64,000 nt of DNA from Escherichia phage HMD-9. Shown in pieces: positions 20,223 to 29,854 of this stretch. The DNA lies in sequence record PV287714.1. One strand, 5' to 3'. A program made the position numbers and the translations under genes. The notes under the pieces were generated by a model, which had not been told where the DNA came from, did no database searches, and was given only the letters and a program-made list of their open reading frames with translations. Positions within the stretch are counted from its first letter, which is position 1, and the number at the start of each line of letters is the position of its first letter.

Positions 20223-20409
20223 AATAATCTAATGGTAAGAGAGTACGATATATTTCAAACTTTGGCCCTTTTTCATAGGCATCAAATGTTTCTGAAAATT
20301 TATTATAAGCATATGCATCTACAAATTCGAGAATGATTTGTGATACAGAAGTAGAAACATCTCCACCTTCTTTTTGAGCAACGACAATTGTTTCTAAGTA
20401 AGCTTTCAT
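20221..20409 (-). CDS. hypothetical protein
   Basis: 62 aa ORF overlapping gene 30 stop. Confidence 0.7.
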   Translation of the reverse strand: MKAYLETIVVAQKEGGDVSTSVSQIILEFVDAYAYNKFSETFDAYEKGPKFEIYRTLLPLDY

Positions 20410-21869
20410 AGACCAGTTACCTCATGAAAATCACCAAATACATCCTCGAATGTATTAGCTTTAGTTTTATCTTCACGTAAACGAATCGCAATCGGAAGAA
20501 ATAATTTAACGTAATCAGTGCGGCCATCAGATTTTAACCAACCATTGCATTCGCACTCTAGAATTTTTCCAATATAATAATTTTGGTTTTCCATAATGCG
20601 AGTACGGTCAAGTTCATGCGATTTTACACCGGCTTTATCTTTTAAGCCTGAACCAGCATTTACTTTAATTTTTCCACACTCTGACTCAAGAATAAATCCA
20701 CCTGCTTTAGTAGGGTCTTTACGGTGAGGATAAATTCCTACAATTTTTAAATCAACATCAATTACTTCTTTAAATTTATAGAGATTTTTTGAACGAGCAT
20801 TTTCCCATAATCCATCGATATTTTTGAGAATAATACCTTCAAGACCTTGGTCAATATACTTTTTATAAATTACCTTAGCTTCATCTAGGTTATTTACTAC
20901 CTGGTTTTCAATTAAAATTACTTTATCATAGCCTGATGTCATTTGTTCTAGTTTAGAAAAACGTACATCATATTTCAAACGAAATGCAGGAAGACCGTAT
21001 ATTTCTACCAACGGGACATAATCCCAGACCTGAAACTTCATGCATTGAGCTTCTTTTTCAGAAATGGTTCCCTTTAAAGATTTATTGGCGATGCCATTAG
21101 ATGCAGTACGTGATTCAGCTACTTCTGTGAAGTCTTTAACTTTGCTGTTTCCAGGATGAGCATCAAAAAGAAAATCTAGGCCTTCTGGCTCCTTTTTAAC
21201 TTGCTCGTGGTATACCAATTCGCCATCAATTAACACACCTTCTGGATGAATCTGGCGGGCTTCAGCAGTCATTTTGATTAACTCTTCCTTAAGAAGATCT
21301 AATCCTAGATATTCATTACCAGCTCGTGATAAAAGACGAACATCATCTAATTCATCACCTCGGACTTCAGCAAAACACCGAGCTCCATCTGCTTTTAACT
21401 GTGCAAAGGCTGGAAACTTAATATTCTTATTAATGCCTTTTTCATCATAAGAACTTGCCAGCATTTGAGGTTGTTCAGGAATTAAACCTGGCCAAACTTT
21501 GTTTGCAATAGATACTGAAGCACCGCATTCAAGGTCTCGCATCATAACTCGACGCAAAACTTCAACATCATCCTTTTTACCATCAGTGATATATCCAGTC
21601 AATTCCTCAATTGCAGCATTTCCAGTCAATTTCCGAGTAGCTAATGTGAATTCAATGAAGTCAAGCATATCGGTAAGAGTCAACATTCCAAAACTCTGGG
21701 TAGTAATACCAGGTTTAGGCCATTTCTTGATATAATACTGCAACCCACGAGAATAAGTCAGACGATATACTCGTTTAAGCAATTCATTATCTTTATTCTT
21801 TTCAAGAATTGCTTGCTTCTGCTTAGTTGAACCAATAGATGCTATTTCGTTCAGAATTTTAAGAATCAT
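20406..21869 (-). CDS. 30: ATP-dependent DNA ligase gp30
   Basis: 487 aa; adenylation motif KADGAR. Confidence 0.96.
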   Translation of the reverse strand: MILKILNEIASIGSTKQKQAILEKNKDNELLKRVYRLTYSRGLQYYIKKWPKPGITTQSFGMLTLTDMLDFIEFTLATRKLTGNAAIEELTGYITDGKKDDVEVLRRVMMRDLECGASVSIANKVWPGLIPEQPQMLASSYDEKGINKNIKFPAFAQLKADGARCFAEVRGDELDDVRLLSRAGNEYLGLDLLKEELIKMTAEARQIHPEGVLIDGELVYHEQVKKEPEGLDFLFDAHPGNSKVKDFTEVAESRTASNGIANKSLKGTISEKEAQCMKFQVWDYVPLVEIYGLPAFRLKYDVRFSKLEQMTSGYDKVILIENQVVNNLDEAKVIYKKYIDQGLEGIILKNIDGLWENARSKNLYKFKEVIDVDLKIVGIYPHRKDPTKAGGFILESECGKIKVNAGSGLKDKAGVKSHELDRTRIMENQNYYIGKILECECNGWLKSDGRTDYVKLFLPIAIRLREDKTKANTFEDVFGDFHEVTGL

Positions 21870-22135
21870 TATTCATCCTTCAGAGTTTGGTTTACAGCTC
21901 TATTATAAATCAATTCATCATTAAGCTCAGTCAAAGACTTATGATATGTGGTTCTAACTTTATTTCCTTGCATCCAGTGCTTGATATAAATGAAACCTTG
22001 CTCTACACATTTTTTAAAAATTCGTTCGTCTTTTTGAGCTCGGAACTCTGGATTGCATCTAAAAAATTGATTTACGTGACCGTAATCACGTGTAGTATTA
22101 CCTTCATTTTCATAAATAGTGTGAACAACAAACAT
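21869..22135 (-). CDS. hypothetical protein (30.1 position)
   Basis: 88 aa ORF. Confidence 0.75.
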   Translation of the reverse strand: MFVVHTIYENEGNTTRDYGHVNQFFRCNPEFRAQKDERIFKKCVEQGFIYIKHWMQGNKVRTTYHKSLTELNDELIYNRAVNQTLKDE

Positions 22136-22998
22136 TAGAATGCTCCTTGAAAAATATTATCACCACTAGTAAGTCTATTAAAATACCCTGCGTCGCCAGG
22201 CTTAATATAACTCCACGTGTGGAATGGATTCATATGATACGGGTGTGTATAATATGGATTATATGGATGTGTATAATATGGATGATATGGATTTAATCCA
22301 GGCGTTCTCCAAGTAGTGTTCCAAGGAAAAGAATCGTTTTTAACCATCTTCTCAATTACATCTTTTATAGCTTTTTCACTATCAAAACTTTCTTTATTTT
22401 CCTTTGGTGAAAAAAGCTTATTCTCTACATCGTTCCATGTATAAACTCGCTGTGCAGTTTTTGGAATACTGTCACGCTCTCCTCGAGCCATCCAATAAAC
22501 TGGAACATTTAATATTTCACTCGCGTGATCGCAGTGGTGAGCGAGATCATCAATATAACAAATTACGTTATATTTCTCTTTTGCCTTTTTGAACAACTCT
22601 TCTTTTGAAGAATCATGACCACACATCAGTACTTCTGAAAAGGCACCAGGAAAAAGAGCATTCAAATTAAATTGACGATTCAGCAGAGCGTCAATAGAAT
22701 CACCCAGTGCTGTAACAGCTACAAAATTATAATCTTCTTTTAATTTGTTAATTACACACAGAGCATCTTTATATGGAGACAAATAACGAATAAAATCTGA
22801 TCGATTATATTTTTCAATTAACTTGACACCAAGTTCTTCATCACAATTAAAGAGTTTACCCGGAGAAATAAATTTCTCATCTTGGATCATTTTTAAAATA
22901 TGTTCTAACGGAAGATTATATTTCTGAGCAAAATAAGGAAGGCCTGATTGCCAGCTTAAACATACTCCATCAATATCAGTCAAAATAGTTGGCTTCAT
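22135..22998 (-). CDS. HAD-like hydrolase with C-terminal His/Pro/Tyr repeat (30.2 position)
   Basis: N-terminal ILTDIDGV (HAD motif I); C-terminal HPYYTHPY repeats. Confidence 0.8.
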   Translation of the reverse strand: MKPTILTDIDGVCLSWQSGLPYFAQKYNLPLEHILKMIQDEKFISPGKLFNCDEELGVKLIEKYNRSDFIRYLSPYKDALCVINKLKEDYNFVAVTALGDSIDALLNRQFNLNALFPGAFSEVLMCGHDSSKEELFKKAKEKYNVICYIDDLAHHCDHASEILNVPVYWMARGERDSIPKTAQRVYTWNDVENKLFSPKENKESFDSEKAIKDVIEKMVKNDSFPWNTTWRTPGLNPYHPYYTHPYNPYYTHPYHMNPFHTWSYIKPGDAGYFNRLTSGDNIFQGAF

Positions 22999-23459
22999 AG
23001 AGAGTCTCTTAATAGGTTTAACACATCAATAAATTCAGCTTCGGTTAGTATTGTATCATCTTTTGTTAGACCACTAGCCATGCTGTGCTTCAAAACTTTT
23101 CCTTTCGAGGCTTGTAATGCATCACGAAAGCCCCTGTTTTGGATCGCTGCTTCAAAATATGCATTTGTATATAATTCTTTCCACGCCGGGGAGTATCTTG
23201 AAAACGGAACTCCAAGCCAAAAGAGGGTCCCACGGTCCTGAGCTCTAGCATAAGATCGTCCAGCTTGTCGGGCGGCAAGCCCGGATAACCCAAATATGCG
23301 TCTTTGCTGTTCAACATTTTTCACCTTACACCCTTGGAGGAATCCTTCGAGACCTCCAAATTGAATACCATCCATAACGAAAGGCCATTGGGCGAAATTA
23401 CTTAATGCACATGATGGCCATTTAAAATTGCTTCTTATCTCTAGCTCAGACATTTTCAA
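22995..23459 (-). CDS. hypothetical protein (30.3 position)
   Basis: 154 aa ORF. Confidence 0.75.
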   Translation of the reverse strand: MKMSELEIRSNFKWPSCALSNFAQWPFVMDGIQFGGLEGFLQGCKVKNVEQQRRIFGLSGLAARQAGRSYARAQDRGTLFWLGVPFSRYSPAWKELYTNAYFEAAIQNRGFRDALQASKGKVLKHSMASGLTKDDTILTEAEFIDVLNLLRDSL

Positions 23460-23652
23460 TACTTATAATTTCAACATCAGCCCAATGACCATAGCAAGGA
23501 AGACGAAATTCAACTGGCCAGTTAGGGTCCTTTTCTAATATAATAGACTGAACTTGTGGCTCTTCATGTTCATCGGTATACGGACCTTTATACGTTACTT
23601 TATATGTGACCTTAATGTACTGAATTCCAAAAATCTTATTAATTATATTCAT
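23446..23652 (-). CDS. hypothetical protein
   Basis: 68 aa ORF in operon. Confidence 0.65.
   Translation of the reverse strand: MNIINKIFGIQYIKVTYKVTYKGPYTDEHEEPQVQSIILEKDPNWPVEFRLPCYGHWADVEIISIENV

Positions 23653-28636: not shown

Positions 28637-29854
<1,218 letters not shown>

What the first reader, a model, noticed from the sequence alone, without database searches (positions are those of the whole stretch)
22231..22300. Tandem 24-bp repeat at the 3' end of a HAD-like hydrolase gene
The 287-aa ORF starts with a HAD motif I (ILTDIDGV) and ends with a His/Pro/Tyr-rich repeat (HPYYTHPY, HPYNPYYT). On the DNA this is about 2.3 copies of GG(G/A)TGTGTATAATATGGAT(T/G)ATAT. Repeat number could vary between isolates, and the His/Tyr-rich tail might bind metal or a surface.
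Basis: seen in the sequence. Interest (0 to 1): 0.4.

Follow-up and report, generated by a model that had tools for sequence, protein, structure and literature searches.

The report
Length-variable repeat in T4 gp30.2 tail
The 24-base tandem repeat is real and its copy number differs between related T4-like phages, but it is an ordinary in-frame slippage polymorphism in the floppy C-terminal tail of an uncharacterised phosphatase-like phage protein (T4 gp30.2).

Summary
The window is a Tequatrovirus (T4-like) genome. The ORF at 22135-22998 (- strand, 287 aa) is the homolog of T4 gene 30.2. It lies between 30.3 (AdfN/NADAR) and 30.1 (DUF3045), just upstream of DNA ligase.

- **The repeat is real.** TRF finds period 24, 2.5 copies, 88% matches and score 97 at 22234-22292. 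No score exceeded 76 in 100 dinucleotide shuffles. It encodes HPYYTHPY/NPYYTHPY (residues 239-254) and lies 33 codons before the stop, not at the very end.
- **Copy number varies.** In 489 phage records, 58 carry the two-unit allele. The rest are 3-27 bp shorter, and every indel seen is a multiple of 3. T4 itself has 278 aa.
- **The tail looks disordered.** It modelled at low confidence twice, evolves about four times faster than the core, and is absent from most distant homologs. Histidine richness is not conserved, so a metal-binding role has no support.

The most likely explanation is slippage in a low-complexity spacer. This is ordinary and of low interest.

The parts
22135..22998 (-). Gene 30.2 homolog, 287 aa: HAD-fold phosphatase-like core, helical linker and disordered tail.
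   Evidence: ORF list. It is 99.8% identical to Escherichia phage Pu-Krd-SF4 and matches 519 Tequatrovirus-type records. The T2 record annotates the same gene as gp30.2. PHROG 420 matches at E 2e-89.
22414..22998 (-). HAD core with a helical C1-type cap, residues 1-195.
22963..22980 (-). HAD motif I, TDIDGV (D8 nucleophile, D10 acid/base).
   Evidence: D8 and D10 are invariant in 57 homologs. Coordinates were checked by translation.
22702..22716 (-). HAD motif II, VTALG (T96).
   Evidence: T96, A97, L98 and G99 are nearly invariant. Coordinates checked.
22603..22605 (-). HAD motif III lysine, K132.
   Evidence: Invariant. Coordinates checked.
22546..22551 (-). HAD motif IV, D150-D151.
   Evidence: Invariant. 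Coordinates checked.
22333..22413 (-). Charged linker, residues 196-222, with a predicted helix at 207-220.
   Evidence: 13 of 27 residues are charged. The helix at 207-220 falls in blocks with mean pLDDT 63 (201-210) and 86 (211-220).
22138..22332 (-). Aromatic/Pro/His-rich low-complexity tail, residues 223-287, predicted disordered.
   Evidence: Composition is P9 Y9 T7 N6 F5 G5 H5 with only 5 charged residues of 65. pLDDT is 37-54 and below 50 in the second model. PDB sequences give no match.
22234..22292 (.). The 24-bp tandem repeat, 2.5 copies.
   Evidence: TRF score 97, with 0 of 100 shuffles reaching it. Sub-structure.
22237..22284 (-). The two full 8-codon units, HPYYTHPY and NPYYTHPY (residues 239-254). 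This is the segment that varies in length between phages.
   Evidence: Translation and the DNA alignment of 18 alleles.
22168..22197 (-). GDAGYFNRLT, a degenerate version of the family motif G(T)GIEYLxxQPT.
   Evidence: Alignment A2 shows E262, Y263 and T269 (T4-type numbering) nearly invariant. The window/T2-type allele has lost the Glu and the Pro and is one codon shorter.
22138..22167 (-). C-terminal decapeptide SGDNIFQGAF, conserved in the 18 Tequatrovirus alleles read (one has L for F283). The SG at 22162-22167 is duplicated (SGSG) in some phages.
22133..22137 (-). TAATG: the 30.2 stop codon overlaps the 30.1 start codon by one base.
   Evidence: At the other end, the 30.3 stop and 30.2 start overlap as ATGA at 22995-22998.

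Best explanation
The ORF is the T4 gene 30.2 homolog. Its first 195 residues form a HAD-superfamily domain with a helical cap. This is most likely a Mg2+-dependent phosphatase acting on a small phosphorylated molecule, with a (deoxy)nucleoside monophosphate as the leading guess.

A charged helix follows, and then a 65-residue tail rich in Tyr, Pro, His and Asn that is predicted to be disordered. The 24-bp repeat lies in the variable spacer of this tail, between a conserved W(R/K)xPG motif and the C-terminal motifs.

The spacer is made of short direct repeats (ATCCATAT 9-mers nested in a 24-mer). Replication slippage or unequal recombination between them adds and removes units of 3 to 24 bp. 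Only in-frame changes survive. This is because the conserved C-terminus must stay in frame, and possibly also because ribosomes must reach the TAATG junction that starts gene 30.1. The window carries a two-unit allele.

Shown: that the repeat exists, that its length is polymorphic and in frame, the HAD fold and catalytic residues, the low model confidence for the tail, and its faster evolution. Inferred: the slippage mechanism, the phosphatase activity and substrate class, and that the repeat acts only as a spacer of tolerated length.
For: - Repeat significance.
- The DNA alignment of 18 Tequatrovirus alleles shows every indel falling on the ATCCATAT/TATTATACAC repeat lattice, with lengths that are multiples of 3. 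Protein lengths run from 278 to 290 aa.
- Census: of 489 phage records matching the last 266 bp of the gene, 55 have the window's length, Shfl2 (present as two records) is +6 and RPN226 is +9. An evenly spaced sample of the rest shows spans of -3, -9, -15, -18, -21, -24 and -27.
- UFV05 carries a single HPYYTHPY unit. RPN226 carries two 11-codon units.
- An independent 11-residue tandem duplication sits in the tail of Erwinia phage Cronus, and T4 has HPYQT/HPFQT.
- Core versus tail, window against T4: nucleotide divergence 4.3% with 20 synonymous and 3 non-synonymous codon changes, against 17.8% with 8 and 13, plus gaps.
- Tail pLDDT is below 55 in two models.
- HAD fold. Catalytic residues conserved. 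hhalign against a mouse 5'(3')-deoxyribonucleotidase fragment gives 89% probability and 30% identity over 88 columns. The PDB profile search's only hit is that enzyme, at E 0.13.
- Most of the 1299 family representatives listed are 190-215 aa, so they have the core only.
Against: - No enzyme assay exists, and no paper on gp30.2 function was found.
- No Pfam or NCBIfam HAD model reaches its threshold on this protein.
- The substrate class rests on weak profile similarity and on the presence of a cap.
- The C-terminal decapeptide stays conserved next to a hypervariable segment, and the tail changes are mostly non-synonymous. Both fit an adaptive, partner-binding tail as well as relaxed constraint.
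- The slippage rate was not measured. The two-unit allele may be one old event spread by recombination rather than a recurrent one.
Confidence: 0.7

Rival explanations
1. The tail is a working tether. Short linear motifs (W(R/K)xPG, GIEYLxxQPT, SGDNIFQGAF) dock the phosphatase onto a phage or host partner, such as the replication or dNTP-synthesis machinery. Spacer length and sequence are then under adaptive, possibly arms-race, selection rather than drifting.
For: - SGDNIFQGAF is conserved in the 18 Tequatrovirus alleles read although the sequence just upstream is hypervariable.
- G(T)GIEYLxxQPT recurs 16-20 residues from the C-terminus in several genera.
- Non-synonymous changes outnumber synonymous ones in the tail, 13 to 8 against T4.
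- Other C-terminal motif classes and whole extra domains are attached to the same core in other genera.
- There is a loose resemblance to the clamp-binding ends of T4 gp43 (SLDFLFG) and gp55 (SLDFLYEAND).
Against: - No partner is known, and AlphaFold2 gives no confident docking of the tail.
- The window/T2-type allele has lost the nearly invariant Glu and Pro of the GIEYL..QPT motif, which looks like decay rather than tuning.
- Most family members lack a tail.
- The clamp-motif resemblance is three identical residues and is absent in Mosigvirus alleles.
- These motifs were not found in other ORFs of the window or in T4 bases 1-50000.
Confidence: 0.2
2. One reading: the His/Tyr/Pro repeat is a metal-binding or surface-binding module, and more copies give more binding.
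For: The 29-residue segment 234-262 has 5 His, 7 Tyr and no charged residue. HP(Y/F) units recur in Tequatrovirus alleles.
Against: - His content is not conserved. It is 0-5% of the tail across the homologs scored, with the window's own tail the highest at 5% and many genera at 0-1%.
- There is no HxH or HExxH-type spacing typical of metal sites. This judgement is from the sequence, not from a tool.
- The tail is predicted disordered and has no PDB or Pfam match.
- Gene 30.2 lies in the early/middle gene block on the early strand with no signal peptide, so a surface role is unlikely. This is inferred from the gene order seen.
Confidence: 0.07
3. The repeat works at the DNA or RNA level, as a promoter, a protein-binding array, a structured RNA or an antisense gene. 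Its coding content would then be incidental.
For: The + strand of each unit contains TATAAT-like hexamers. A 49-aa antisense ORF (22147-22296) exists in the window.
Against: - Promoter-like sites in 21800-23500 number 6, against 6.6 +/- 2.5 in shuffles. None lies inside the repeat on the + strand, and no terminators were found.
- RNA folding of the region gives z = -1.84, with 10 of 200 shuffles folding as well.
- There is no Rfam match at E <= 1.
- The antisense open frame is broken or shortened in most alleles.
- All length changes preserve the sense reading frame.
Confidence: 0.03

Closest known systems
Bacteriophage T4 gene 30.2 product (hypothetical protein T4p204; PHROG 420)
   Same: It is the same gene. 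It sits in the same position between 30.3 and 30.1 upstream of DNA ligase. The core differs from T4 at 4.3% of nucleotides. PHROG 420 matches at E 2e-89.
   Different: T4 has 278 aa against 287 here. T4 has NPYNPYHPYQTHPFQTW in place of the two HPYYTHPY-type units, and it keeps the canonical GGIEYLYNRPT motif that is degenerate here (GDAGYFNRLT).
5'(3')-deoxyribonucleotidases of the HAD superfamily (cdN/mdN, Pfam NT5C PF06941; PDB 2jao, 2i7d, 3bwv)
   Same: - HAD core plus a helical cap inserted after motif I.
- A DGVLxxF/W-(Q/E)-SGL stretch after the nucleophile.
- Foldseek E 3e-8 to 5e-8, with target TM-score up to 0.71.
   Different: PF06941 does not match this protein even at E <= 1; only one distant family member reaches E 9e-4, below the gathering score. 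Generic HAD phosphatases and dehalogenases score equally well by fold. Those enzymes have no aromatic/Pro-rich tail. Substrate is untested.
T4 polynucleotide kinase/phosphatase (Pnkp), 3'-phosphatase domain
   Different: By my recollection of the published structures (not checked here), the Pnkp phosphatase has no cap, which lets it reach nucleic-acid ends. This model has about 55 residues of helical cap (residues 16-72), which in HAD enzymes usually goes with small substrates. There is also no kinase domain.
In-frame coding tandem repeats (coding VNTRs or minisatellites) generated by slipped-strand mispairing
   Same: Head-to-tail units, length differences between isolates in whole codons, and a location in a low-complexity disordered segment.
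   Different: The range is small: about one or two full units plus 3-9 bp steps. No allele with three or more 24-bp units appeared in the 120 table rows read (60 best, 60 evenly spaced). There is no evidence of phase-variation-like switching.

Membership tests
HAD (haloacid dehalogenase-like) superfamily | Motif I, DxDx(T/V), at the end of strand 1. | tested here: met
   T7-D8-I9-D10-G11-V12. D8 and D10 are invariant in 57 homologs.
HAD (haloacid dehalogenase-like) superfamily | Motif II (Ser/Thr), motif III (Lys) and motif IV (acidic pair DD or DxxxD). | tested here: met
   T96 is nearly invariant. K132, D150 and D151 are invariant.
HAD (haloacid dehalogenase-like) superfamily | Rossmann-like alpha/beta core fold shared with solved HAD enzymes. 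| tested here: met
HAD (haloacid dehalogenase-like) superfamily | Match to a curated HAD sequence model above its threshold. | tested here: not met
   Pfam and NCBIfam give no HAD hit for this protein. Distant family members give only sub-threshold hits to PF00702, PF13419 and PF06941. Membership therefore rests on fold and motifs.
HAD (haloacid dehalogenase-like) superfamily | Mg2+-dependent phosphoryl transfer through an aspartyl-phosphate intermediate. | not testable with these tools
   Needs an enzyme assay.
5'(3')-deoxyribonucleotidase family (NT5C, PF06941) | Sequence membership, meaning the Pfam gathering score. | tested here: not met
   No PF06941 hit at E <= 1. hhalign against a cdN fragment gives 89% probability, and the PDB profile search gives E 0.13. 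This is a resemblance, not membership.
5'(3')-deoxyribonucleotidase family (NT5C, PF06941) | dNMP phosphatase activity. | not testable with these tools
   No assay was possible and no literature was found.
Pnkp-type capless (C0) HAD polynucleotide 3'-phosphatase | No cap domain, so that macromolecular ends can reach the active site. | tested here: not met
   The model has five helices (16-26, 32-40, 46-49, 54-65, 68-72) inserted after strand 1, which is a C1-type cap. That Pnkp's phosphatase is capless is my recollection, not a check made here.
Coding tandem repeat with copy-number polymorphism | At least two head-to-tail copies, beyond chance. | tested here: met
   2.5 copies with TRF score 97, against a shuffle maximum of 76.
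Coding tandem repeat with copy-number polymorphism | Length differs among related genomes by whole units or sub-units, in frame. | tested here: met
   Alleles of 278-290 aa. All indels are multiples of 3 and lie on the repeat lattice.
Metal-binding His-rich tail | His residues conserved across homologs. | tested here: not met
   The His fraction of tails is 0-5% and is highest in the window allele. T4-type alleles have fewer His in the corresponding segment.

The most novel reading that the evidence does not exclude
The hypervariable aromatic/proline tail of gp30.2 is a fast-evolving docking arm. Its short terminal motifs would recruit a nucleotide phosphatase to a phage replication or dNTP-synthesis complex, or let it evade or engage a host factor. 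Spacer length, set by the repeat number, would tune that interaction. The conserved position directly upstream of DNA ligase in four Straboviridae genera, and the single fused 30.2-30.1 ORF, would then reflect a shared pathway.
Probability: 0.12. Interest if true: 0.5.

Novelty: new member of a known kind. Interest (0 to 1): 0.2.

Why it matters
This has limited importance.

- It gives an uncharacterised, widely conserved T4 early gene (30.2) a well-supported fold assignment: a capped HAD phosphatase with all catalytic residues present.
- It shows that the C-terminal tail is a dispensable, fast-evolving, slippage-prone add-on.
- The length polymorphism could serve as a fine-scale typing marker among Tequatrovirus isolates.
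- The conserved terminal motifs give a concrete starting point for partner-finding experiments.
- The repeat does not reveal a new mechanism.

Tried and rejected
- **Junction census by megablast.** An 85-nt repeat-only query found nothing, probably because of the low-complexity filter or the 28-nt word requirement. I counted alleles from alignment spans of a 266-nt anchored query instead.
- **Second AlphaFold2 run.** I used only tail-bearing homologs with the T4-type protein first, to see whether the GIEYL motif docks on the core. The model was worse (mean pLDDT 69) and the tail stayed below 50, so it was uninformative.
- **Tail against PDB sequences.** No match.
- **Defence-system models (PADLOC).** Nothing for gp30.2 or gp30.1.
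- **Rfam, RNA folding and promoter/terminator scans.** Nothing above background.
- **Antisense ORF.** Not conserved.
- **Tail motifs in other proteins.** I scanned the window and T4 bases 1-50000. No credible second occurrence turned up. The rest of the T4 genome was not scanned.
- **Clamp-binding idea.** The C-terminus shares only S.D.(I/L)F with gp43 and gp55, so I kept it only as a weak lead.
- **Frameshift origin of the degenerate motif.** Rejected. The difference from the T4 type is an in-frame 3-nt deletion plus substitutions.
- **Literature.** Three searches found no functional work on gp30.2.

Full report
**Where we are.** The window is a T4-like phage genome. The 864-bp ORF at 22135-22998 (- strand) is 99.8% identical to Escherichia phage Pu-Krd-SF4 and matches 519 phage records, nearly all Escherichia, Shigella and Yersinia Tequatrovirus. 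Its neighbours are DNA ligase gp30 (20406-21869), gp30.1/DUF3045 (21869-22135; Pfam E 4e-64) and gp30.3 (22995-23459; PF08010, E 1e-69). The T2 and fFiEco06 records label the ORF gp30.2. It belongs to PHROG 420, 'unknown function'.

**The observation.** Tandem Repeats Finder reports 22234-22292 with period 24, 2.5 copies, 88% matches and score 97. This is the best score in the window. None of 100 dinucleotide-preserving shuffles of the window reached it; the shuffle mean was 49.6 and the maximum 76. The 24-mer is built from nested 9- and 15-nt sub-units.

On the coding strand it reads ...GLNPY-HPYYTHPY-NPYYTHPY-HMNPFHTW... The two full units are residues 239-254 (22237-22284).

**The protein.**
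- An AlphaFold2 model built on 57 homologs has pLDDT of 92-98 over almost all of residues 1-190. It shows a Rossmann-like strand order and a five-helix insert at residues 16-72, immediately after strand 1.
- Foldseek against the PDB returns only HAD-fold enzymes at the top, with E about 1e-8 and probability 1.00. They include human and mouse 5'(3')-deoxyribonucleotidase and a staphylococcal deoxyribonucleotidase-like protein, which has the highest target TM-score at 0.66-0.71.
- In the alignment D8, D10, K132, D150 and D151 are invariant and T96 is nearly so. These are the four HAD motifs.
- The second Asp of motif I is the feature of phosphatases rather than dehalogenases. This point is established knowledge of the superfamily, not a test made here.
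- By sequence the family is orphan. No Pfam or NCBIfam HAD model is reached. A profile search of PDB sequences finds only mouse cdN, at E 0.13. hhalign of the family profile against that cdN fragment gives 89% probability and 30% identity over 88 columns. Distant members give only sub-threshold hits to PF00702, PF13419 and PF06941.
- An exhaustive profile search finds 1299 cluster representatives at E <= 0.001. Most of those listed are 190-215 aa, so they consist of the core alone.

The HAD reading is therefore well supported. The sub-family and substrate remain open. The cap argues for a small substrate, and a nucleoside monophosphate is the best guess.

**The tail.** Residues 196-222 are a charged, partly helical linker. 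Residues 223-287 hold 9 Pro, 9 Tyr, 7 Thr, 6 Asn, 5 Phe, 5 Gly and 5 His, with only 5 charged residues of 65. This segment has pLDDT 37-54 and stays below 50 in a second model built only from tail-bearing homologs. It matches nothing in the PDB.

Across Straboviridae homologs the tail ranges from absent to about 150 aa and is not alignable as a whole. One sub-set, which includes Tequatrovirus, Mosigvirus and phages of Klebsiella and Citrobacter, shares an order of short motifs: FPxxW(K/R)xPG, then a variable aromatic/Pro spacer, then G(T)GIEYLxxQPT, then a short end. The window's repeat lies in that variable spacer.

The window (T2-type) allele has a degenerate version of the GIEYL motif, GDAGYFNRLT. 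It differs from the T4 type by substitutions plus an in-frame 3-nt deletion, not by a frameshift. The last ten residues, SGDNIFQGAF, are conserved in the 18 Tequatrovirus alleles read, with one allele carrying L for F283.

**Does copy number vary? Yes.**
- Eighteen alleles read directly range from 278 aa (T4, fFiEco06) to 290 aa (RPN226).
- UFV05 has one HPYYTHPY unit. The window, Pu-Krd and Shfl2 have two. RPN226 has two 11-codon units (NPYNPYYTHPY twice). G8, T2, QOTSP, FL34, P922 and T4 have other combinations of the NPY, HPY and YTH pieces.
- In the DNA alignment every gap lies on the ATCCATAT/TATTATACAC lattice and is a multiple of 3.
- Of 489 phage records matching the last 266 bp of the gene, the 58 best hold 55 with exactly the window's span, the two Shfl2 records at +6 and RPN226 at +9.
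- An evenly spaced sample of all 489 shows spans of -3, -9, -15, -18, -21, -24 and -27. About 58% of the sample are T4-type alleles so diverged that megablast aligns only from position 124-133 onward.
- No allele with three or more units appeared in the 120 table rows read (60 best plus 60 evenly spaced, which overlap).
- A second small polymorphism, SG versus SGSG (6 bp), sits at 22162-22167.
- Tandem duplication in this tail recurs elsewhere. Erwinia phage Cronus has PMTPCDPPYPY/PMTPCDPVYP, and T4 has HPYQT/HPFQT.

**Rates.** Between the window and T4, the core differs at 4.3% of nucleotides, with 20 synonymous and 3 non-synonymous codon changes. The tail differs at 17.8%, with 8 and 13, plus 18 gapped columns. 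This fits relaxed constraint. It would also fit diversifying selection, and these data cannot separate the two.

**DNA- or RNA-level alternatives.** Promoter-like sites are at the shuffle expectation and there are no terminators. RNA folding gives z = -1.84 and Rfam finds nothing. The antisense open frame is not conserved. Maintenance of the sense frame in all alleles points to protein-level constraint, or to translational coupling at the TAATG junction with gene 30.1.

**Most likely explanation (about 0.7).** Slipped-strand mispairing or unequal recombination between short direct repeats changes the length of a tolerant, disordered spacer in the tail of a HAD phosphatase. The repeat has no role of its own. 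Slipped-strand mispairing is classical knowledge that was first worked out in T4; it was not tested here.

**Rivals.**
- The tail is an adaptive docking arm (about 0.2). The conserved terminal motifs support this. The lack of any partner and the decayed motif in this allele weaken it.
- A metal- or surface-binding His/Tyr module (about 0.07). His is not conserved.
- A DNA- or RNA-level element (about 0.03).

**What is known.** No paper in the searchable library deals with gp30.2 function. The neighbouring gp30.3 was recently shown to be AdfN, a NADAR enzyme that counters DarTG1 (PMC11825919). Some GenBank records already annotate this gene as 'haloacid dehalogenase-like hydrolase domain-containing protein', 'putative phosphatase' or '5'-3' deoxyribonucleotidase'. 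The HAD idea is therefore not new. The repeat polymorphism appears not to have been described, but it is an ordinary example of its kind.

**Verdict.** In novelty it is a new member of a known kind, and interest is low (0.2).

Noticed in passing
window 22995-23459 (- strand): This is the gp30.3 homolog (PF08010, E 1e-69). It was recently renamed AdfN, a NADAR ADP-ribosylglycohydrolase that neutralises the DarTG1 defence system (PMC11825919). Its stop codon overlaps the 30.2 start codon as ATGA at 22995-22998, so the two genes are probably translationally coupled.
   Followed up: partly
L024 234-1142 (protein P0015; Logan contig SRR21148734_3542831, 1378 bp): A single 302-aa ORF fuses the gp30.2 HAD core to a gp30.1/DUF3045 domain. 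This could be a Rosetta-stone hint that 30.2 and 30.1 work together. It rests on one short contig, however, so it could equally be an assembly or gene-calling artefact.
   Followed up: partly
L026, L027 and L028 (Klebsiella phage vB_KpnM_VPA32, Acinetobacter phage vB_ApiM_fHyAci03 and a Shewanella Thanatos-like contig): The HAD gene lies directly upstream of the DNA ligase gene, or one small ORF away, on the same strand in all three distant genera as well as in Tequatrovirus. The NADAR gene 30.3 is adjacent only in some of them. The ligase adjacency is therefore the conserved link, although it may simply reflect the conserved Straboviridae gene order.
   Followed up: partly
Proteins P0066, P0069 (Yersinia phage phiR1-RT type), P0084, P0102, P0144, P0153 and P0198: In these proteins the same HAD core carries quite different extensions. 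They include a roughly 110-aa C-terminal domain, a Cys-rich 150-aa C-terminal extension, and extra sequence N-terminal to the core in proteins of 591 and 660 aa. The core seems to be a module that recombines with varied partners.
   Followed up: no
Tails of P0012-P0021 and P0022-P0034: Besides GIEYLxxQPT, at least two other recurrent C-terminal motif classes occur in tails of other lineages. One is (L/F)(R/K)A(Y/F)Y close to the end. The other is Y.LLNKV.ANDS.
   Followed up: no
window 22162-22167 (- strand): There is a second in-frame micro-duplication polymorphism. The window, T4 and G8 have SG, while T2, Shfl2, DalCa and QOTSP have SGSG (an extra AGTGGT). It lies immediately before the conserved DNIFQGAF end.
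   Followed up: yes
window 22135-22260 compared with 489 phage records: Tequatrovirus 30.2 has two allele classes in its last ~125 nt. The T4 type has QTWN...GGIEYLYNRPT and the T2/window type has HTWS...GDAGYFNRLT. UFV05 combines a window-like repeat unit with a T4-type end, which suggests recombination inside the tail.
   Followed up: partly
window 23577-23613 and 29809-29848: TRF lists other short tandem repeats: period 12 with 3 copies (score 37), which falls in the 68-aa ORF at 23446-23652 and matches its repeated VTYK, and period 21 with 2 copies (score 57). Both scores are within the range seen in shuffled sequence.
   Followed up: no
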